32,490 nt of DNA, from positions 1-32,490 of the IMG/VR virus record IMGVR_UViG_3300005662_000008. One strand, 5' to 3'. Position numbers and translations under genes: made by a program. Below the pieces are notes generated by a model. The model worked only from the letters and a program-made list of their open reading frames with translations. It was not told where the DNA came from and searched no databases. The stretch's first letter is position 1; each line of letters opens with the position of its first letter. Of the stretch, positions 14,867 to 28,092 are shown piece after piece. The DNA is from a virus. Taxonomy: Duplodnaviria; Caudoviricetes.

Positions 14867-15556
14867 TAGGCATCTTGTTACGCTTCAATATATCTAGGTC
14901 TAGTTCGTAGCATAGGAACGTGAAGGCCTCCCGCACCTTGAGGTTGGTCACGGCCTCTATGCGTAGCGCGTCACCCTGCGCTAGGTGGTAAATCGTCGCA
15001 TACCAGCCCCACTTCTCACCCAGCTTGCTCCCTCCTTCTCCATCAAAGATTGGCTCAAAGTCCCGGCGCAGTCCGTTGCGAAATTCAAAAAAAAAGCAAG
15101 CGCCCCTAGGATGACCTCCATCCGCAACAAGCGAAACGACTCCACCTCCTCCACCCCAGCGTACGGGGTAATTTCGTACGCGTCTCCGCGCTTGAAAACC
15201 ACTGGCCTATACAGCACACTGGCAAAGGCCACGAGGTTAGCGTAGAGGTCCTGACAGATGGTCTCTAGGTCAGCGTACTCACCTACCGTCATGGCGCTCA
15301 GGTTGGGGTTGAAGCCGTAGGTGACACCCCCGTGCTCAAACGTGCGCACGAGGGGCCATGTGCGGTCGTCGCTAGGGTCGAACTTGCCCATAACCTCAAT
15401 GACCTTCTCTAGGCTGGCAAGGTCTAGGTAGTTGATGAACTCTCGCGTTACGCCACACGCGATAGCCACCTGCTCAATGGGGTCGTCCGTGTTGTGGATG
15501 GCTTGGAACTGCTCTATGGTCAACTCGCCTAGATGGTCAGGGACGGTAATCTTCAT
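14856..15556 (-). CDS. Tail assembly chaperone, -1 frameshifted long form (GT-like)
   Basis: T9 slippery run at 15087-15095; the -1 frame is open for 79 codons (FFFEFRNGLRRDFEPIF...KWGWYATIYHLAQGD...MPNDT*) and ends overlapping the next start. Confidence 0.75.
14981..15556 (-). CDS. Tail assembly chaperone, short form (G-like)
   Basis: Start MKITVPDH at 15556 in ATGA overlap with the TerL stop; YGFNPNLSAMTVGEYADLE; GALAFFL at the slip site. Confidence 0.7.
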   Translation of the reverse strand: MKITVPDHLGELTIEQFQAIHNTDDPIEQVAIACGVTREFINYLDLASLEKVIEVMGKFDPSDDRTWPLVRTFEHGGVTYGFNPNLSAMTVGEYADLETICQDLYANLVAFASVLYRPVVFKRGDAYEITPYAGVEEVESFRLLRMEVILGALAFFLNFATDCAGTLSQSLMEKEGASWVRSGAGMRRFTT

Positions 15557-16710
15557 CGGATGTGGTATTTCCCGCTGAGGGAGGTGGTTAGCTTGTTTAG
15601 GCAAACATAGCGCACAGCGTCTATGGCGTGGTTCATGGCATCGAGGGGCTGGTTCAGCTGGCGCTCGTTCTTGTCCGTCATCCACTTGTAGTTCCGCATC
15701 TCCTTAGTGAGGTTGAGGCTCCGTGGGGTGACGTGTAGCACGTGCCGCTTCATCACGTCTATGCCTAGCCGGATGCTGTCAGGCCCCTTCTTGCTAGGCT
15801 TGATGTTGAACCCGTGGCGGTGTAGCTCTTCTATGGACTTGGGTTCAGCGCTATCGGCAATGATTTCAGCCCGGTCGGGGAGCACCTCGTTTAGCTCCCT
15901 CACTAGGTCCGGGTTGGTCATCTGCGTGCGGTAGAACAGCTCATCTAGGTAGAGGTGGTGGTCTAGCTTGTAGACGGCAACCACTGCCGTAGGGTCATTG
16001 GTGAAGCCCCAATCTAGGCCGACCCCTACCAGCTTGGCTGCGGGGTCAATCTCGCTAGCCTCCCATGCCGGGAAGATGACGTTCTGCGACACCCCACGCA
16101 TCCCTAGGCCGTAGATGCGCCAGTAGTTCTCGTCTGTCTCGCGCAGGCGCTCAATCTCTGTGATGACCTCCGGCTCTAGGTAGGGGTTGTCTAGGTAGGT
16201 GGTCTGAAAGAACTCCGCGTCCTCCCTAGGGATGAGGTCGTCGTAAATCCAGTGGAACTCGTCAGCTGGGTTGTAGTCGATGATGGCCCGGTCGGTCGTA
16301 CGCAGGATGAGCTGCCGCCAGTCCTCCCTCGTTAGCTCAGTGGCCTCGTTGACGAATAGGATATTGCGCTTGCGCCCCCTGACCTTAGCGGGTTGGTCGA
16401 TGCTGATGAACTCCACTAGGTTGCCGAACAGGTGGTAGGTGTTCTCGGACTTGTTGTGGAGGTTGGGGTGGTACCAGTCCTGCCCCTCCAGTACCGTGAT
16501 GAAGTCCCTAAGCACGGAAGCCCTCAAGCTAGGGAAGGTCTTACGCGCGATGGTGATGGTCCACCCAGCGTTAGCGTTCATCCAGCACCACTCACACAGC
16601 GCTTGGACTATGCTGAAGGTCTTGCCGCTACGGGTGCCCCCCTGATGTATCTGAATCTTGGCCCGACTGGTTTTGACGTGGTAGTACGTGGCGGGTTGCT
16701 TCCGATTCAT
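15553..16710 (-). CDS. terL: Terminase large subunit (PBSX-like)
   Basis: Walker A QGGTRSGKT, Walker B LFVNEATEL, DYNP, GLDWGFTNDP, ADSAEPKSI and NHAIDAVRY. Confidence 0.95.
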   Translation of the reverse strand: MNRKQPATYYHVKTSRAKIQIHQGGTRSGKTFSIVQALCEWCWMNANAGWTITIARKTFPSLRASVLRDFITVLEGQDWYHPNLHNKSENTYHLFGNLVEFISIDQPAKVRGRKRNILFVNEATELTREDWRQLILRTTDRAIIDYNPADEFHWIYDDLIPREDAEFFQTTYLDNPYLEPEVITEIERLRETDENYWRIYGLGMRGVSQNVIFPAWEASEIDPAAKLVGVGLDWGFTNDPTAVVAVYKLDHHLYLDELFYRTQMTNPDLVRELNEVLPDRAEIIADSAEPKSIEELHRHGFNIKPSKKGPDSIRLGIDVMKRHVLHVTPRSLNLTKEMRNYKWMTDKNERQLNQPLDAMNHAIDAVRYVCLNKLTTSLSGKYHIR

Positions 16711-16715
16711 CCGTC

Positions 16716-17360
16716 TCAGGCATTTTGAGCTAGCGCCTTTGAACGATTAGGCCCGTTCCACACCAGCCCTACCCTATGGTCAGGATTGCGCCATCTGCAC
16801 GCTAGCAAATCATTTGCGCTGGCGTTGACGTATCCGGCTGCTTCGAGGGCCTCCACGGAGTCGAATATCCGCGCGTGGCGGTCCTTGGTGAGGTCCACGA
16901 GGTCATCGCGGGTGCCCCCTAAGCTAAACACCACGCTGAGGTTGTCCGGTATGTGGAGCACCTCCTTGAACAGCGGCACCGACTTGGTGTAGGTGTAGAA
17001 GCGAACGTGGGGGCTGTTCTCGATGACATGGAACCACTTGTCCCGGTACTCGCGGCTGTACCAGTCGCCCGCGTCATGCACACGAAGGTAGGTGGGCTTG
17101 CGCTCCTGAATCTCCTTGAGCATCAGGGTAGGGAAGTCAGGCCGCAGGGTCGCCTCGTAACGCTTGCGGTAGACGGGTGCGACGTTGCTCCACAGGTAGG
17201 CCCCGCGCTTGGCGTAGCAGTACTGCTGGCAGGCTCCCGCGAACGGGCACGTGCGTTTGCCCTCAGGGGTCTCTAGGGCAGGGATGCCGAAGTTCATGAC
17301 GCGCTCCCCGGTCAGCTTGCTAGCGTGCCGCAGGGCGGAGTTTTGGCTAAGCAGTTTCAT
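16716..17360 (-). CDS. GP88-like protein (Cys-triad, radical-SAM-like)
   Basis: TCPFAGACQQYCYA, RVHDAGDWYS and FYTYTKS motifs match my recollection of the phage GP88 family. Confidence 0.7.
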   Translation of the reverse strand: MKLLSQNSALRHASKLTGERVMNFGIPALETPEGKRTCPFAGACQQYCYAKRGAYLWSNVAPVYRKRYEATLRPDFPTLMLKEIQERKPTYLRVHDAGDWYSREYRDKWFHVIENSPHVRFYTYTKSVPLFKEVLHIPDNLSVVFSLGGTRDDLVDLTKDRHARIFDSVEALEAAGYVNASANDLLACRWRNPDHRVGLVWNGPNRSKALAQNA

Positions 17361-17691
17361 CGAACCACGTGGGCTTAGTGAGCGGTTGACCAGCCGTGGT
17401 GATGTCGGTGGTCTCTACGTAGCCCCGCGCCTTGCCTTTGGTCTTCAGGTAGAAGATGGTGGCTGTGGCATTGCCCTCTTGGATGAGCTTGTGGAGGTTG
17501 CTCTCAGCGAAGTCCACGGCCACATCGGCCAGCTCCTTTACTGCGGACGCATACTCCGCATCCTCCCGTAGCCAGCGGTAGTGGGTATCGCGGCTCACAT
17601 TCACGGCCTTGCAGGCGGTCGTTACCACTCCTAGGCTCTGCTCTAGCGCCTTAAGCAGTTTCTCTTTTATTGTGTCTGATTTGTCAGGCAT
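17347..17691 (-). CDS. terS: Terminase small subunit (HTH-type)
   Basis: LGVVTTACKAVNVSRDTHYRWL helix-turn-helix; ATIFYLKTKGKARGYVE; upstream of TerL. Confidence 0.75.
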   Translation of the reverse strand: MPDKSDTIKEKLLKALEQSLGVVTTACKAVNVSRDTHYRWLREDAEYASAVKELADVAVDFAESNLHKLIQEGNATATIFYLKTKGKARGYVETTDITTAGQPLTKPTWFDETA

Positions 17692-18499
17692 CTAGGAACG
17701 CTTTTAGGGAGTAGACGATGAGGGAGTTGCGGTAGCCACCTTGCTCGTGGGGTTGGATGGGAGTGACCCCGTGGACGTTCCTCCACGCAGGGTAGACGAG
17801 CATGCTGTTGTCGGGTTGCTCGAAGGTAGCCCCGTAGTCGGGCACGTTTAGACACCCCCCTTGGCTGTTGGAGCGCTTAGTGTAGATGAAGTTCAGGCTA
17901 CCTACGATGTTGCCTGTGTCCACGTGGAACGGGGCTGCCGCGTTGTAGTTGCTGATGCTGGAGGTGAAGTGCTTGCCGAACCGCCACTTGTCATCCACCG
18001 GGGCGATGGCCTCCAGCTGTTGCTGATGCAGTTCAGGGCTGAGTTCCTCTAGCAGGGTCATCCCTAGTTGGCTGATGGCTATCATGGCCTTCACGAAGGT
18101 CTGCGCCTTGGGGTCGCGGTGGGTGCTTGCGTACCCCGGCTTGAGCCTGCGCACACGAGGGTTAGGCTTGATGCTCCCCAGTAGGGTGCTGTACTGCATG
18201 ACCCCTTCGCCTTGCTCGCCCAGCTCCTTGAGGGTACGCCCGGACTCTGTGGCAGCGGTGATGGCTTGGGTGCGGTGGAGGGTGGCTTTAGGGACCCGCT
18301 CGCTGCGGAACTCCTTGTTGGCCACGTCTAGGACGGCCCCCATCCGTACGTCATAGTCGTTCACGTTGCGCACGTACAGGCCTACGGGCTTCCCGTCCTC
18401 GACTAGGAGGCAGTCCTCGTGGATGTTGGGTTCAATGTACACACAGCGCTCACCCACCTTCACCTCGTGGGGCACCTTGGTCAACTCGAGTATTCGCAT
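17684..18499 (-). CDS. TET/JBP-family 2-oxoglutarate/Fe(II) dioxygenase
   Basis: FTSSISNYN-AAPF-HVD (HxD); GGCLNVPDY; distal HGVTPI...YRNSLIVY (H...RxS). Confidence 0.85.
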   Translation of the reverse strand: MRILELTKVPHEVKVGERCVYIEPNIHEDCLLVEDGKPVGLYVRNVNDYDVRMGAVLDVANKEFRSERVPKATLHRTQAITAATESGRTLKELGEQGEGVMQYSTLLGSIKPNPRVRRLKPGYASTHRDPKAQTFVKAMIAISQLGMTLLEELSPELHQQQLEAIAPVDDKWRFGKHFTSSISNYNAAAPFHVDTGNIVGSLNFIYTKRSNSQGGCLNVPDYGATFEQPDNSMLVYPAWRNVHGVTPIQPHEQGGYRNSLIVYSLKAFLDA

Positions 18500-19977
18500 C
18501 GGAGTAATTTGAGAGCGTTTAAAGCACTTTCGCTGGATTGAACTATGCGGTGACTAGGCAGATTGAGAACACGCGTAGAAATGGCCTTCAAATGCCTCTC
18601 TGACTGGTTGCTGCCCCTTGCTGCCCGGCCCTCCGCTCCGTCACCTGCGATTCGGATGACCACGGGGTCCGCCTTGGCGATGAACTTGCTGTTGGAGAAT
18701 CGGTCGCCCTCGAACACGGCTAGCTTCCGTGATTTCTTCACGTAGGCGAGGAACGGGTCTAGGTCGCGCATCACCGCCATAGACAGGCGGTCGCTGCCCT
18801 CAAAGGTGGTGCCATCGTACTTACCCACGACGATGAAGTCGTCCGTCTCCACCCAGTGCACCATGCCCATGCGGTACTTGCGCGCCTCGCTCGTGAGGAG
18901 CTGCTTCATCACCCACGTCTTCCCCACCCCGCAGTTGCCTGTGATGAGTACGCACTGCCTCAACCACGGCTTGCTGCTGACCTTGAATCCTTCTTCTTCC
19001 ATCATGATGACCTCTCCGGTTAGGCGGTAGTGATTCTGTTTCTCCGGGCATAGGCCCCGGTCTAGGAGGTTGTCCTCTAGACGCAGGTGCTTAGGCAGCG
19101 CCCACTTACGGGCCTCCCAAAATACGCTAAAGTCCTCCGTAGGGCATAGCTGCTCGGCCTTCCGGATGCGGTCATGGAACATGTCGTTGTAGACGTTCGG
19201 GTACCTCCGGTTTATCCGGTGCCATCCTTTGTAGCAGCACAGGGTGGTCTCTAGGGTGAAGTACGATACGTCCGGGTGACCTATCCGCTCGCGCGCCTCG
19301 AGCAGGAGGGCCTCCCCTTCCCGCTCCAGCCAGTCGAGGTGGGGTGTGTAGTCCACGCGGTCCTGCTTCCACCAGTCGAGGTCGTCACGCCCTAGGACCT
19401 TGCACAGCCCGTTGCGGTGGCTCTTGCTCCCTGAGATGTCGTCTAGGAACAGCTGGTCGCAATCGAGGGGGATACCCGCAATACGGAGGTATTCCAAGTA
19501 GCTGAAGGTAGACAGCCGCCCGAAGGTGAGGTACTGGTTAGACACCACGTCCCACACTGCCCTGAAATTAGCGTGTTCCGTCCCTACGCACAGGTCTCCG
19601 TAGAACGCGTATTGGGTCTTCCCGTTAAGCGCCGCTTGATAGCTCTCCACGGCCTCCACGAACCTCATCCGCGTGTACCTGCGGTCCGTATCGAACGGCA
19701 GCCGCTCGCGATGGTGGGTGAACCACGCCCGCAGGTCCTCGATGTCAGCTGGAGGGAGCGGGTACTCCTTCCAAATACGGTAGGTGGTCAGAGGGTGCTG
19801 GGTGCAGCCGTTGATGAACGTGAACCACAGCGCCTGCTCCTTGGTCATACCCAGCTCCTTGAACAGGTACGGGAAGACGTAGTACACCCCCCCGGCATGA
19901 GCGCGGTACTTGAGGTGGTACTCGTAGAAGCGGAGGAACGTCTCGCGCCTGTGCTCGTGTAGGCGGTAGTCCATCAC
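18481..19977 (-). CDS. Amino acid:DNA transferase (aGPT-Pplase2-like) fused to a C-terminal P-loop 5-hydroxymethylpyrimidine DNA kinase
   Basis: N-domain MDYRL..RRETF, FGRLSTFSYLEYL, DDISGSKSHRNGLC, ETTLCCYK; C-domain (from ~aa 340) ITGNCGVGKT, GKYDGTTFEGSDRLS, FEGDRF. Confidence 0.82.
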   Translation of the reverse strand: MMDYRLHEHRRETFLRFYEYHLKYRAHAGGVYYVFPYLFKELGMTKEQALWFTFINGCTQHPLTTYRIWKEYPLPPADIEDLRAWFTHHRERLPFDTDRRYTRMRFVEAVESYQAALNGKTQYAFYGDLCVGTEHANFRAVWDVVSNQYLTFGRLSTFSYLEYLRIAGIPLDCDQLFLDDISGSKSHRNGLCKVLGRDDLDWWKQDRVDYTPHLDWLEREGEALLLEARERIGHPDVSYFTLETTLCCYKGWHRINRRYPNVYNDMFHDRIRKAEQLCPTEDFSVFWEARKWALPKHLRLEDNLLDRGLCPEKQNHYRLTGEVIMMEEEGFKVSSKPWLRQCVLITGNCGVGKTWVMKQLLTSEARKYRMGMVHWVETDDFIVVGKYDGTTFEGSDRLSMAVMRDLDPFLAYVKKSRKLAVFEGDRFSNSKFIAKADPVVIRIAGDGAEGRAARGSNQSERHLKAISTRVLNLPSHRIVQSSESALNALKLLRCEYSS

Positions 19978-20909
19978 ATCACGTCACTGCCTACAATCCA
20001 AAAGCAGGTAGTAGGGGTCAGGTACTCAGGCGCCCGCTCCTTGAGGTAGCGGATGCACTTGCCCTCGTAACGGGGGTGGAATCGGATGTCGCCGATGGCT
20101 TCACGCATCTCCTGCTGGTAGGTGCAGTACCCGGTGCCGTTCAGGTTCAGGTAAACCATGTCGTATTTCGCGTTCTCGCTAGCGAAATTGAAGTCAAAAT
20201 ACTCGTCCGTGTCAAGCCCTAGGTTCACCTCAACGACGGCACGGAGCCTCCTCCGAACGTACCCGATGTCATTGCTGCCCATGTTGCCGATGCCCATCAG
20301 CACGATGCGCTTCAACCCCGGCGGTGGGTACATCATGATGCCGTAGAGGATGCTCGTCACGCTGTTGCAGCTGCCGCACGGGATGATTAGGGTCTCCACG
20401 TCCTCCGGTATGTTCATCACCTGCCACGCGCCTACGCGGTGAAATCCCTCTATGTCCCTAAATGAGTTCTTCTCTAGGTCGAGGGTGATGTTGGTCTCTA
20501 GGTAGCGGAACCCCTCCCATGCGAGCGACGCCTTACGCGCCTGCGCCCCGCACGCCTGAGCGTACCCGACCCGGCTGGAGACGATGTGCGCTCCAAACTC
20601 GTGCGCCATGCGGAGGTACTTGTGCTCTAGCGGCTTGCGGACCCCGCTTACGATGTAGCAACCCACGTTGTAGTGGCGGCACGCTGCGGCTATGAACGCG
20701 TGCTGTGGACTTTGGCTGACGCTACCGCTAGCCACGCCCTTCAGGTTACCCTCGTCGTACCACTTGTCGACTAGGTAGATGCACTGCCGGAGCTTGCTTC
20801 CGTTGATGTTGCCGTACCCTAGCGGAGCGAACTTGTCGTCCCGCTTGAAGTACATGCCCCCGTGCCGTTCAACCGGGGTTAGGTCCCTCAGTTTTGACCC
20901 CCACGTCAT
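19974..20909 (-). CDS. PLP-dependent enzyme (fold II), putative DNA-adduct decarboxylase
   Basis: LTPVE...FKRDD...NGSKLRQ (PLP lysine); IPCGSCNS phosphate loop; FHPRYEGK; FWIVG. Confidence 0.82.
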   Translation of the reverse strand: MTWGSKLRDLTPVERHGGMYFKRDDKFAPLGYGNINGSKLRQCIYLVDKWYDEGNLKGVASGSVSQSPQHAFIAAACRHYNVGCYIVSGVRKPLEHKYLRMAHEFGAHIVSSRVGYAQACGAQARKASLAWEGFRYLETNITLDLEKNSFRDIEGFHRVGAWQVMNIPEDVETLIIPCGSCNSVTSILYGIMMYPPPGLKRIVLMGIGNMGSNDIGYVRRRLRAVVEVNLGLDTDEYFDFNFASENAKYDMVYLNLNGTGYCTYQQEMREAIGDIRFHPRYEGKCIRYLKERAPEYLTPTTCFWIVGSDVM

Positions 20910-21502
20910 TCGCCTAGCTCGTCTCGGAGCAGGGTGAGTAGCGCCATCCCCACATCGAAGTTGCGCCTGTTGGCTTCTTTCACTAACTCGTATGCCTCTT
21001 GAAAGAGGTCATTAGGGAAGTTGATGAGGATGCCCCGCTCGGTGCTCTCCGCTATCTTGGTTACGCGCTCGTCTATGCCGCTGAACTCGTCTGAATCCAA
21101 TACCGTGTAGTCCGCATCGACCTCCGGCACCCACACGTGTAGGCCCCAGTCGTTCAGCTGGACAGCGTCCCACGTGTTGCTGAGCATGTCCCAGTCCCAC
21201 TCCCCATAGCTGACGTTGTCCTTGACCACAAACTGCTTGCGCTGCTCCTCAGTCCAGCCCTCGGCTACGATGACAGGCACCTCTTTGAACTTCAGCTCCT
21301 CGAGCGCCTTCAACCGCATGTTGCCCCCTAGCGCCACGTGGTCCTCATCAACCACGATAGGTCGCTTCCACAACATCTCCGGGAACTCCTTTAGGGACTT
21401 GACCAGCTGGCGGTACTTCTCGTCCCGGATGACGCGCGGGTTGTCCGGGTTAGGCTTGATTTGGCTCAGGGGTAGGGTCTGAATCATCGCAGGTGTGTTC
21501 AT
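20906..21502 (-). CDS. ParB/Srx-like N-terminal domain protein
   Basis: IKPNPDNPRVI, RPIVVDED...GGNMRLKAL, FVVKDNVSYGEWD; no ParA nearby. Confidence 0.85.
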   Translation of the reverse strand: MNTPAMIQTLPLSQIKPNPDNPRVIRDEKYRQLVKSLKEFPEMLWKRPIVVDEDHVALGGNMRLKALEELKFKEVPVIVAEGWTEEQRKQFVVKDNVSYGEWDWDMLSNTWDAVQLNDWGLHVWVPEVDADYTVLDSDEFSGIDERVTKIAESTERGILINFPNDLFQEAYELVKEANRRNFDVGMALLTLLRDELGE

Positions 21503-21869
21503 AGATGGTTTTGAGTTCGTTCAGTACGCGTATCATGCACGAGGGGCAGCGCGTGTACTCCTGCCTCCTACCGGTGTACCGCTGGTAGAGGTCGATGGCT
21601 AGGTGCTGGGTTGCCGCTGTGATGGTGTCGTTGAGGGTGATGGCCGCTAGGTGCTGCTCGTAGATGCGCTTGTCTACGGGAGCGAAGGTGCGGTAGTACG
21701 GGAACAGGAGGTTGAGGGCGGTGCGCCGCTCGTCACACCCGCAGTCGCTACCGGCAATGGCCTTAACGACCGCCTTAACCCCGGTGGCGGTAGTGATGGC
21801 GTCGATGGTGTCACCTAGGCCCTTGGCCTTTCTGCGCCGCGTGGGTTTGCTTGATTGCGTCTCTGACAT
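21450..21869 (-). CDS. Conserved hypothetical protein with Cys motifs
   Basis: KGLGDTI...TGVKAVVK...DCGCDERR and CPSC. Confidence 0.7.
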   Translation of the reverse strand: MSETQSSKPTRRRKAKGLGDTIDAITTATGVKAVVKAIAGSDCGCDERRTALNLLFPYYRTFAPVDKRIYEQHLAAITLNDTITAATQHLAIDLYQRYTGRRQEYTRCPSCMIRVLNELKTIYEHTCDDSDPTPEPNQA

Positions 21870-22350
21870 GCTTGATGGCCTTATAGATAGTAGTTCGGCT
21901 GATTCCGGTCTCCTTGGCGAGGGTGTTTAGGGAGTGTCCGTGAGCAACATACACCATAAACACCATCCGCTCAAAATAGGGGTACCGCTCCAACTGCTTC
22001 TCTACAAAGTTACACAGCGCCTCTCTACGTTCCCACTCGCCATCGTCGGGTGTGCTCCACTCCTCTATCTCGTAAGCGGCCGCTCGGTGGCGTTCAACCT
22101 GCTTGCGGTACTTGTAGTGCCATGGGCTGGTCTTGCTGTTGTACTGGTTCATCATGATGCGTGCTATCCAGTACCGCATCTGACCTCGTTCAATCAGGCC
22201 CACCATCCGACCCCGGTCACTCTCGTACAGGATGACCATCACCTCGTGTGCGAGGTCGTCTGCGTCGTGGCGGTTACCCCGCGTGACGGCAACCGCCATC
22301 TTGACGATGGCATCGTAGTTCGAGGTGACGTATTTGTCCAGTGGGTCCAC
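21811..22350 (-). CDS. ECF-type sigma-70-like factor (probable late/middle gene activator)
   Basis: Region 2-like DADDLAHEV...YWIARIMMN; region 4 HTH SLNTLAKETGISRTTIYKAI; start uncertain (GTG 22350 or ATG 22425). Confidence 0.75.
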   Translation of the reverse strand: MDPLDKYVTSNYDAIVKMAVAVTRGNRHDADDLAHEVMVILYESDRGRMVGLIERGQMRYWIARIMMNQYNSKTSPWHYKYRKQVERHRAAAYEIEEWSTPDDGEWERREALCNFVEKQLERYPYFERMVFMVYVAHGHSLNTLAKETGISRTTIYKAIKHVRDAIKQTHAAQKGQGPR

Positions 22351-22453
22351 GTAGAGAAGTATTAAAACAGGCCCTTTGTGGTGGTCAAAAAATGGCCTCG
22401 GAACGCGTTGATTCTCATAGAACAAGCACTTCTCAAGAAGAATAGCCGAGCGG

Positions 22454-27183: not shown

Positions 27184-28092
27184 TTAGTTGCCTAGGATGT
27201 GCTCTACGGCTGCGCTCGCCTGCTGCGCCGCGTACACGACCATGCGAGGGTGGTCCTTGAGCTGCTTGACCCAGCCGTTGATGTAGGCCTGTGATTGGTC
27301 GGCGCGCCACTCGACTCCGGCCAGTGCGCTGAGGTACTCGGCGCCGATTTCGGCTACCAGCTCTTCCTGAGCGTAGCTGTCGGTGCCGAAGCCCTGCACG
27401 TCCACTACGCCTGCGCGCTTCAGGCGGGTCGTGTGACCCGTGCTGTGAATCATCTCGTGGAACAGCGTGTGGGCGTAAGCCTCTCCCGCCACGAAGGTGG
27501 TGGCCTCGGGCATCTGAATCAGGTCAGCAGAGGGGCGGTAGTAGGCCTTATTGCCCCCGTGGTTCAGGGTGGGGCGGTTAGCGTAGCCCTCCCACACCCA
27601 CTCCCATCCGGTGGCTGGTGTGAACTCGTCGCTCGTGGGGGCGACGCGACGCGGGTCGAGGCCCTCAACCTGAGCTACGTTGAACACGTTGTAGGAGCGG
27701 AGGGTCCAGCGCTCGTCGCACTCGGACTTCTTGATGCCCGCCTTCTTCAGCTCAGCCTCGGAGTACCACTTACCCGTCTCAGTGTGGCAGTAGGACACTA
27801 CCCAGTAGATGACGCAGGTGCTCTTGCTGCCCTTAGCGACCTTCCCGCCTGCCTCGCTCGCCTGCTTGAAGGTCATCCACTCGTTAGCGGTGAACCCGAA
27901 GTCAGTCATAGCTGCGTTCAGGAGGAAGACGTTGACACCCCGGTAGCGGGTCTTGGTAGCCCAGTTCATCGGAGCGTCATCGGCGCCGCCCCAAGGACGG
28001 AACCAAGACAGGCCGCGCTGCTGAAGGCCCTCGATGACACGCTGGGTGATTGACTCGTAGAGGTCGGTGCGGGTGGTGGTGGTGGTAGCCAT
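27184..28092 (-). CDS. ardC: ArdC-like antirestriction protein (ssDNA-binding domain plus zincin-like domain)
   Basis: LYESITQRVIEGL..WFRPW, YRGVNVFLL, WMTFKQA...GGKVAKG, YNVFNVAQVEG, AYYRPSADLIQMP, HEMIHSTGH, YAQEELVAEIGA. Confidence 0.92.
   Translation of the reverse strand: MATTTTTRTDLYESITQRVIEGLQQRGLSWFRPWGGADDAPMNWATKTRYRGVNVFLLNAAMTDFGFTANEWMTFKQASEAGGKVAKGSKSTCVIYWVVSYCHTETGKWYSEAELKKAGIKKSECDERWTLRSYNVFNVAQVEGLDPRRVAPTSDEFTPATGWEWVWEGYANRPTLNHGGNKAYYRPSADLIQMPEATTFVAGEAYAHTLFHEMIHSTGHTTRLKRAGVVDVQGFGTDSYAQEELVAEIGAEYLSALAGVEWRADQSQAYINGWVKQLKDHPRMVVYAAQQASAAVEHILGN

What the first reader, a model, noticed from the sequence alone, without database searches (positions are those of the whole stretch)
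17684..20909. Candidate fully post-replicative pyrimidine hypermodification pathway started by a TET/JBP dioxygenase
Seen: three overlapping genes encoding a PLP fold-II enzyme, an amino acid:DNA transferase-kinase fusion and a TET/JBP dioxygenase. The genome looks complete, yet I find no dUMP hydroxymethyltransferase, dCMP deaminase, DNA polymerase, C5-methyltransferase or glycosyltransferase. Established: in ViI/M6-type phages, 5-hmU is made at nucleotide level and incorporated during replication; a DNA kinase, an amino acid transferase and a PLP decarboxylase then give bases such as 5-NeOmdU. Characterised phage TETs act on 5mC made by a linked methyltransferase and feed glycosyltransferases. 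Inference: here TET/JBP oxidises thymine in DNA to 5-hmU (JBP-like), which is phosphorylated, displaced by serine or another amino acid, then decarboxylated. That would be a three-gene route working on host-replicated DNA. Such neighbourhoods have been predicted computationally, but I know of no biochemical demonstration.
Basis: partly seen in the sequence, partly recalled or inferred. Interest (0 to 1): 0.88.

Follow-up and report, generated by a model that had tools for sequence, protein, structure and literature searches.

The report
Four-gene phage thymine hypermodification cassette
A small freshwater phage carries four overlapping genes beside its DNA-packaging genes that likely oxidise thymine in finished DNA and turn it into a bulky amino-ether base; the design is already published, but this oxidase belongs to a lineage for which I found no test, and it is predicted to bind its ParB-like helper directly.

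Summary
The three genes are real, and the circular 32.4-kb genome shows no nucleotide-level route or C5-methyltransferase. The idea is not new. Lee et al. predicted such clusters, and O'Toole et al. (PNAS 2026) showed that phage dioxygenases oxidise thymine in DNA, some only with ParB. This scan has met the design on other DNA several times. The transferase and PLP enzyme fall in the ViI serine-pathway families, so 5-NeOmdU is the likely product; nothing was measured. Two points are added. First, the dioxygenase lies outside the tested clades C1/C2 as sampled, in a large MED4-184-like lineage whose tailoring genes are swapped between ParB and the dioxygenase. Second, the ParB tail tracks the dioxygenase clade (129 of 135 held-out assignments, none crossed), and a complex model puts the dioxygenase on that tail (score 0.69, best control 0.01). 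Against a dense shield, the genome has purged restriction sites that ViI's base protects. My searches found no full reconstitution in print. Verdict: new variant of a known kind.

The parts
20906..21502 (-). ParB-like protein (198 aa): nucleotide-binding domain, linker and short C-terminal domain; likely activator of the dioxygenase.
   Evidence: PF02195; 47% over 162 aa to the L149 protein that matches ParB176 by eye; tail tracks dioxygenase clade; complex model, interface residues 122-178
19974..20909 (-). PLP fold-II enzyme of the ViI gp226 type (311 aa); likely DNA-linked amino-acid decarboxylase
   Evidence: 34.5% to ViI gp226, E 2.7e-53; M6 gp52 E 0.8; K39 aligns with gp226 K92; phrog_3650, the gp226 family
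18988..19977 (-). Amino acid:DNA transferase half of the 498-aa fusion (start may be the ATG at 19974); likely serine:DNA transferase
   Evidence: PF18724; 28% to ViI gp247, E 2e-26, against E 0.04-0.57 for the glycine and putrescine enzymes; E243 and C247 kept; model matches PUGT 8z2m at Z 17.4, rmsd 3.5, 253 aligned
18481..18972 (-). P-loop kinase half of the fusion; likely 5-hmdU DNA kinase
   Evidence: Walker A at residue 347; phrog_800, the family of M6 gp54 and PaMx11 gp49, E 2.2e-6; profile-profile 96.8%; nucleoside-kinase folds Z about 10; no hit to Pfam's own HMUDK models
17684..18499 (-). TET/JBP dioxygenase (271 aa), MED4-184-like lineage; likely thymine dioxygenase
   Evidence: PF12851; H192, D194, H243, R257 invariant in 30 of 30 aligned; top fold matches CcTet, TET2, CMD1, NgTET1; outside the C1+C2 split
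17347..17691 (-). Terminase small subunit, overlapping the dioxygenase stop by 8 nt
   Evidence: PHROGs; overlap
16716..17360 (-). GP88-family protein with three clustered cysteines; adjacent but probably not part of the pathway
   Evidence: PF17338; absent from the same slot in L017; in 2 of 89 lineage loci
15553..16710 (-). Terminase large subunit
   Evidence: PF04466, PF17288; found in 76 of 89 lineage loci

Best explanation
Four overlapping genes lie directly upstream of the terminase in a circular phage genome, and they likely form a ParB-activated pathway that would convert some thymines of finished DNA into 5-(2-aminoethoxy)methyl-uracil (5-NeOmdU). Step 1 (inferred; shown for other clades): the ParB dimer binds the dioxygenase through its linker and tail and switches it on, and the dioxygenase hydroxylates thymine to 5-hmU. 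Step 2 (inferred from M6/ViI): the kinase half phosphorylates 5-hmU. Step 3 (inferred from ViI gp247): the transferase half, using E243/C247, replaces the phosphate with the hydroxyl of serine. Step 4 (inferred from ViI gp226): the PLP enzyme decarboxylates it. Modification is probably partial and late, tied to packaging. Shown here: genes, overlaps, families, folds, catalytic residues, conserved order. Not shown: any activity, the amino acid, the base.
For: Family placement of each enzyme. No C5-methyltransferase or nucleotide-level enzymes found in the circular genome. In 89 viral loci of this dioxygenase lineage: ParB 82, glycosyltransferase 63, FkbM 10, transferase 11, PLP 9, C5-methyltransferase 3, none of these 3 between ParB and terminase. 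ParB is present in 70 of 71 loci with 1.8 kb or more upstream. Same order in L017 and L056. The 5mYOX176/ParB176 locus (L149) uses the same slot before the terminase with a transferase and kinase. A PLP gene occurs with a ViI-like transferase in 11 of 11 PLP loci and in 0 of 24 loci with other transferases (not dereplicated). Lee et al. show the PLP step needs a free alpha-amine, which O-serinyl-T has and N-glycinyl-T lacks without a radical-SAM isomerase; no gp53-like isomerase was found. ParB tail assigned to its own dioxygenase clade in 129 of 135 held-out cases, 0 crossed, against 104 own and 31 crossed for the N-terminal domain. Complex model: score 0.69, best of 3 controls 0.01; mark reached by 116 of 157 solved complexes and 2 of 215 mismatched pairs (counts hold only roughly here); runs share at least 76% of contacts, partner pLDDT at least 83. 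Synonymous codon changes exceed non-synonymous ones in all four genes against L004 (40 to 12).
Against: The dioxygenase is only 26% identical over 170 aa to 5mYOX176; grouping its lineage with C1 is rejected (AU p 0.0009), so T-oxidation is borrowed from other clades. It lacks the C-terminal extension that C1 enzymes need (14 residues after the last arginine against 35). Many tested ParB pairs gave under 5% 5hmU and no stable ParB complex was caught in vitro. The transferase is only 28% identical to ViI gp247, its tree link is weak (SH-aLRT 84, long branch), and 35 of 46 ViI-like transferase loci have no PLP gene in the fetched DNA, so serine is a best guess. The kinase half misses Pfam's HMUDK models and a profile of the three characterised kinases finds only its P-loop (E 0.025). 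The genome has purged CCWGG and ATCGAT (0 against 67.5 and 10.3), sites that ViI's base protects in vitro: against dense protection.
Confidence: 0.6

Rival explanations
1. Same thymine route, but the transferase attaches another amino acid or amine, so the final base is not 5-NeOmdU and may be undescribed.
For: 28% identity to ViI gp247. Two transferases about 35% identical, of one network cluster, were suspected of using different ligands, and the paper reports diaminopropane for one (PMC13458397). ViI-like transferases often occur without PLP. GP88 with three cysteines lies two genes downstream.
Against: Both transferase and PLP enzyme have the ViI families as best PHROG match (E 2e-69 and 3e-66). 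GP88 is missing from the nearest relative.
Confidence: 0.2
2. One reading: the dioxygenase works alone and ParB has another job, such as packaging.
For: The enzyme lacks the C1 extension, as ParB-independent C2 enzymes do. ParB genes are common beside terminases (recalled).
Against: ParB in 82 of 89 loci; ParB tail tracks the dioxygenase although the genes between them are swapped; complex model passes against its controls.
Confidence: 0.1
3. The substrate is 5-methylcytosine laid by a host methyltransferase, giving a cytosine hypermodification.
For: Both purified T-dioxygenases also oxidised 5mC in vitro. Clade D TET40 gave 0.93% 5hmC, and I could not see whether this lineage is clade D. GGCC, GCGC, CCGG and GCNGC sites are near expected counts. 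No clade A/B enzyme was in my tree.
Against: No phage C5-methyltransferase; 3 of 89 lineage loci have one, outside the cassette; CCWGG and several C-containing six-base palindromes are absent; the characterised kinases and transferases act on 5-hmU.
Confidence: 0.07
4. The cassette is decayed or the dioxygenase does something else, and the DNA is unmodified.
For: Strong restriction-site avoidance; several tested clade C1/D enzymes were inactive.
Against: Catalytic residues intact, open frames in other strains, synonymous excess.
Confidence: 0.03

Closest known systems
ParB-dependent phage T-dioxygenases, 5mYOX clade C1 (5mYOX176/ParB176; O'Toole et al. 2026, PMC13229309)
   Same: ParB without a DNA-binding domain, dioxygenase, amino acid:DNA transferase and kinase in one cassette before the terminase; no C5-methyltransferase; ParB 47% identical to ParB176.
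   Different: Dioxygenase in another lineage (26% over 170 aa; outside C1+C2; no C-terminal extension); different ParB tail; tailoring genes lie between ParB and dioxygenase; transferase and kinase fused; PLP enzyme present (term absent from that paper's supplements).
Salmonella phage ViI 5-NeOmdU pathway (gp243/gp67 kinases, gp247, gp226; Lee et al., PMC8989533)
   Same: Transferase and PLP enzyme of the same PHROG families, with the catalytic Glu/Cys and Lys kept.
   Different: ViI makes 5-hmU as a nucleotide; here no such enzyme is found and a dioxygenase stands in. The kinase is of the M6 gp54 family, not gp243.
Metavirome TET_JBP + thymidine-hypermodification contigs (Lee et al., Fig. 2 sequences 22-25)
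   Same: The same logic, stated there as a prediction; kinase fusions also noted.
   Different: Figure not visible to me, so I cannot say whether this gene order is among them.
Prochlorococcus phage MED4-184 (ParB, FkbM methyltransferase, TET/JBP, terminase) and mycobacteriophage Zemanar (ParB, TET/JBP, transferase, kinase)
   Same: Cultured phages with the closest dioxygenase (43%) and closest transferase (42.5%).
   Different: Other tailoring genes; I found no report of their bases.

Membership tests
TET/JBP (5mYOX) dioxygenases | Profile match, HxD...H iron ligands, 2-oxoglutarate arginine | tested here: met
   PF12851 above cut-off; H192, D194, H243, R257
TET/JBP (5mYOX) dioxygenases | TET-type fold, closer than AlkB/FTO | tested here: met
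   Foldseek ranks CcTet, TET2, CMD1, NgTET1 first (E 7e-12 to 3e-8), then FTO/AlkB
5mYOX clade C1 (ParB-dependent) | Neighbouring ParB without DNA-binding domain; no linked C5-methyltransferase | tested here: met
5mYOX clade C1 (ParB-dependent) | Groups with C1 in a tree | tested here: not met
   C1+C2 split 100/100; AU p 0.0009. C1 was sampled by my motif scan and anchored on L149; untested non-ParB C1 members were not available
5mYOX clade C1 (ParB-dependent) | C-terminal extension | tested here: not met
   14 residues after the last catalytic arginine against 35
5mYOX clade C1 (ParB-dependent) | Oxidises T in DNA, boosted by ParB | not testable with these tools
   Needs an assay
5mYOX clade C2 (ParB-independent) | No ParB neighbour; groups with C2 | tested here: not met
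   ParB present; separate in trees
5mYOX clades A/B (5mC dioxygenases) | Linked C5-methyltransferase | tested here: not met
   None in the genome; 3 of 89 lineage loci, outside the cassette
5mYOX clade D | Groups with TET40/TET73 | not testable with these tools
   Supplement of PMC8256090 could not be read
ViI-type 5-NeOmdU tailoring set | Amino acid:DNA transferase fold with catalytic Glu and Cys | tested here: met
   E243/C247; PUGT Z 17.4
ViI-type 5-NeOmdU tailoring set | gp226-type PLP enzyme with the Schiff-base lysine | tested here: met
   34.5%, K39 aligned with K92
ViI-type 5-NeOmdU tailoring set | 5-hmdU DNA kinase | tested here: inconclusive
   phrog_800 and hhalign 96.8% but no Pfam HMUDK hit
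ViI-type 5-NeOmdU tailoring set | Serine as the transferred ligand | not testable with these tools
   Needs an assay
ViI/M6 whole pathway | dUMP hydroxymethylase supplying 5-hmU before replication | tested here: not met
   No hit

The most novel reading that the evidence does not exclude
The MED4-184-like enzymes are a third, abundant class of phage thymine dioxygenase, switched on by direct binding of a clade-specific ParB linker and tail, and serving as a common handle-maker for swappable sugar, methyl or amino-acid tailoring. This phage makes the ViI base wholly on finished DNA with four genes, and its ParB-dioxygenase pair settles the open question of how ParB activates these enzymes.
Probability: 0.45. 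Interest if true: 0.62.

Novelty: new variant of a known kind. Interest (0 to 1): 0.4.

Why it matters
The pathway idea is published, so the cassette alone would not surprise a specialist. It is still a very compact test set for a chain that I found nowhere reconstituted end to end. It would also extend T-dioxygenase activity to a large lineage (3363 related 90%-clusters among 3857 candidates) that includes a cultured Prochlorococcus phage. O'Toole et al. could not tell whether ParB acts by binding the enzyme; the tail-tracking result and the modelled interface give a specific, cheap test. A four-gene system that puts a primary amine on thymine in any DNA would be a useful labelling tool.

Tried and rejected
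Hidden methyltransferase: the two PHROG 'DNA methyltransferase' labels fall on a protease and on ParB; rejected. 'Queuine tRNA-ribosyltransferase' and 'terminase small subunit' labels on the dioxygenase and kinase families are database names also given to MED4-184's dioxygenase and M6 gp54; not used. GP88 as an isomerase: not conserved with the cassette, the Atlas gives only the GP88 family, and one paper listing was uninformative. Sequence search of the PDB with the fusion and the PLP enzyme found nothing; Foldseek on the two-domain model gave no E below 0.001, though PUGT had probability 1.00. NCBIfam added nothing on the cassette. RNA run X20 gave four short contigs: no evidence of expression. 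Host: 13 genome-bin contigs with this lineage name many phyla, so no host is claimed. Reading the modified sequence context from site avoidance gave no pattern: TG-, TC- and T-free sites are all purged. Iyer et al. 2013 was not held and is known to me only by recall and citation. The supplement of Burke et al. could not be read; it decides whether this lineage is clade D.
Full report
Observation. The window is one circular phage genome: a 100-bp exact terminal repeat, with a tail ORF reading across the junction. All main genes are on the minus strand. The three reported ORFs overlap each other and their neighbours: ParB 20906-21502, PLP enzyme 19974-20909, fusion 18481-19977, dioxygenase 17684-18499, small terminase, GP88, large terminase. 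Near-identical copies exist in two IMG/VR contigs, and 9 of 21 listed runs hold half or more of the sampled words, 3 of them flagged as a possible source; several listed runs are labelled freshwater, lake or aquatic. Contigs of 3 DNA runs cover the region without indels. I found no hydroxymethylase, dCMP deaminase, polymerase, C5-methyltransferase or glycosyltransferase (53 ORFs; tblastn; 655 six-frame segments, with shallow profiles).

What is in print. O'Toole et al. 2026 (PMC13229309; main text parts 1-6 of 7, SI Appendix parts 3-4 of 6, Dataset S11 parts 1-2 of 4 and searches; figures not visible) show that phage dioxygenases oxidise T in DNA, not in nucleotides. Clade C1 enzymes need a ParB and sit with kinases and amino acid:DNA transferases; downstream steps were not tested in the parts I read, and no stable complex was caught. 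Lee et al. (PMC8989533; passages and sections 17, 19, 23) established the kinase, transferase and PLP steps and predicted TET_JBP-started clusters. Burke et al. 2021 (PMC8256090; parts 1-3 of 6) had TET89 oxidising T. I also saw passages of PMC11472151, PMC13458397, PMC6449724 and part 1 of PMC11955845. Searches found no end-to-end reconstitution; that library lacks most subscription journals. The scan's own notes list 8 similar cassettes on other DNA.

The tailoring enzymes. I fetched ViI, M6, PaMx11 and PhiW-14 loci. The PLP enzyme is 34.5% identical to ViI gp226 and keeps the lysine aligned with K92; M6 gp52 is not detected. The transferase half is 28% identical to ViI gp247 and scores E 0.04-0.57 against the glycine and putrescine enzymes. 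A 32-row tree puts it on the ViI side, weakly. It keeps the ExxxC pair, and its model matches the PaMx11 structure at Z 17.4. PHROGs gives the ViI families for both. The kinase half is the weakest link by sequence: same PHROG as M6 gp54, profile-profile 96.8%, kinase fold, but no Pfam HMUDK hit. PLP genes went with ViI-like transferases in 11 of 11 loci and 0 of 24 others; 35 of 46 ViI-like loci had none nearby (duplicates not removed, flanks limited).

The dioxygenase. It has the iron and 2-oxoglutarate residues and a TET fold. Its closest cultured relative is in Prochlorococcus phage MED4-184 (43%). A motif scan of IMG/VR returned L149, whose two proteins match 5mYOX176 and ParB176 by eye. 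The window enzyme is 26% identical to that over 170 aa. Trees of 68 and 28 rows, drawn from 188 collected sequences, place it in a fully supported lineage outside C1+C2, and forcing it with C1 is rejected (long branches, no clade A/B/D rows). So it works like a C1 system but is not a C1 member as sampled.

The lineage. I mapped 89 loci: 10 and 79 from the best 80 of 523, leaving out the two near-copies of the window; they form 57 clusters at 90%. The pattern is mostly ParB, tailoring gene(s), dioxygenase, terminase; in the L093-type PLP loci two ParB genes precede the dioxygenase and the tailoring genes follow it. Tailoring is a TET-associated glycosyltransferase in 63, FkbM in 10, transferase in 11, PLP in 9; a C5-methyltransferase lies nearby in 3, never inside. 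Enzymes 90% or more alike carry either a glycosyltransferase or a kinase/transferase set, as expected if the dioxygenase makes a common hydroxymethyl handle.

ParB. Its N-terminal part resembles ParB176, its tail does not. Profiles of the last 55 residues sent held-out ParBs to their own dioxygenase clade in 77 of 79 cases, none crossed, and in 129 of 135 after dereplication to 54 clusters over 5 splits; the N-terminal domain crossed in 17 of 79 and 31 of 135. In this lineage swapped genes usually separate ParB from the dioxygenase, so adjacency alone explains this poorly; shared descent of whole cassettes is not excluded. A model of two ParB with one dioxygenase scored 0.69 against a best control of 0.01; the mark was reached by 116 of 157 solved complexes and 2 of 215 mismatched pairs (roughly applicable); runs share at least 76% of contacts and partner pLDDT is at least 83. 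All confident ParB contacts lie in residues 122-178. Solved structures match only ParB profile positions 3-99, so I see no solved template for this interface. This supports binding; it does not show it.

Results against. The genome has no GATC (108.6 expected), CCWGG (67.5), AGWCT, ATCGAT, GAGCTC or CTGCAG. ViI DNA resists cutting at CCTGG and ATCGAT. Either modification here is sparse, or it comes late and leaves replicating DNA bare; I cannot tell which. The lack of the C1 extension fits a ParB-independent enzyme as well.

Verdict. Observation confirmed; interpretation partly supported. Best reading: a four-gene, ParB-activated, post-replicative route to 5-NeOmdU (0.6); some thymine hypermodification about 0.9. 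New variant of a known kind, interest 0.4.

Noticed in passing
window, whole genome: Complete or near-complete avoidance of many restriction-type sites (GATC 0 against 108.6, CCWGG 0 against 67.5, AGWCT 0 against 24.7, ACWGT 2 against 34.4, seven six-base palindromes at 0). L017 and L056 also lack GATC.
   Followed up: partly
L076:2005-3816 and L097:3480-5291: Cassettes with only ParB, kinase and dioxygenase before the terminase, no transferase or glycosyltransferase in the slot: the end product could be phosphorylated 5-hmU itself.
   Followed up: no
L090, L095, L110: Glycosyltransferase plus a sulfotransferase-family gene between ParB and the dioxygenase.
   Followed up: no
L080, L088, L092, L093, L112, L114, L117: Two tandem ParB genes before the dioxygenase, with the PLP gene (and transferase and kinase where the contig reaches) after it.
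   Followed up: no
L001:6647-8771: Cultured Prochlorococcus phage MED4-184 has ParB (annotated 'DNA methylase'), FkbM methyltransferase and this dioxygenase lineage (annotated 'queuine tRNA-ribosyltransferase'); a ready source of virion DNA.
   Followed up: partly
L002:1-3465: Mycobacteriophage Zemanar has ParB, dioxygenase, a transferase 42.5% identical to the window's and a kinase, with no PLP gene in the 9 kb fetched.
   Followed up: partly
L019, L021, L026, L031, L161, L172, L221: An unassigned gene of about 250 aa sits between a C1-type dioxygenase and a ViI-like transferase, where no PLP gene is seen.
   Followed up: no
window 16716-17360: GP88-family gene inserted between the two terminase genes, cysteines at 38, 44, 48.
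   Followed up: partly
window 27184-28092: ArdC-like anti-restriction protein (ArdcN and MPTase-PolyVal domains): a second counter-restriction device.
   Followed up: no
window 21811-22425: Phage-encoded ECF-type sigma factor two genes upstream of ParB, possibly driving the late operon.
   Followed up: no
L005, L008, L014, L094, L108 ParB genes: Within one dioxygenase lineage, clearly different ParB N-terminal domains carry the same linker motif and tail.
   Followed up: partly
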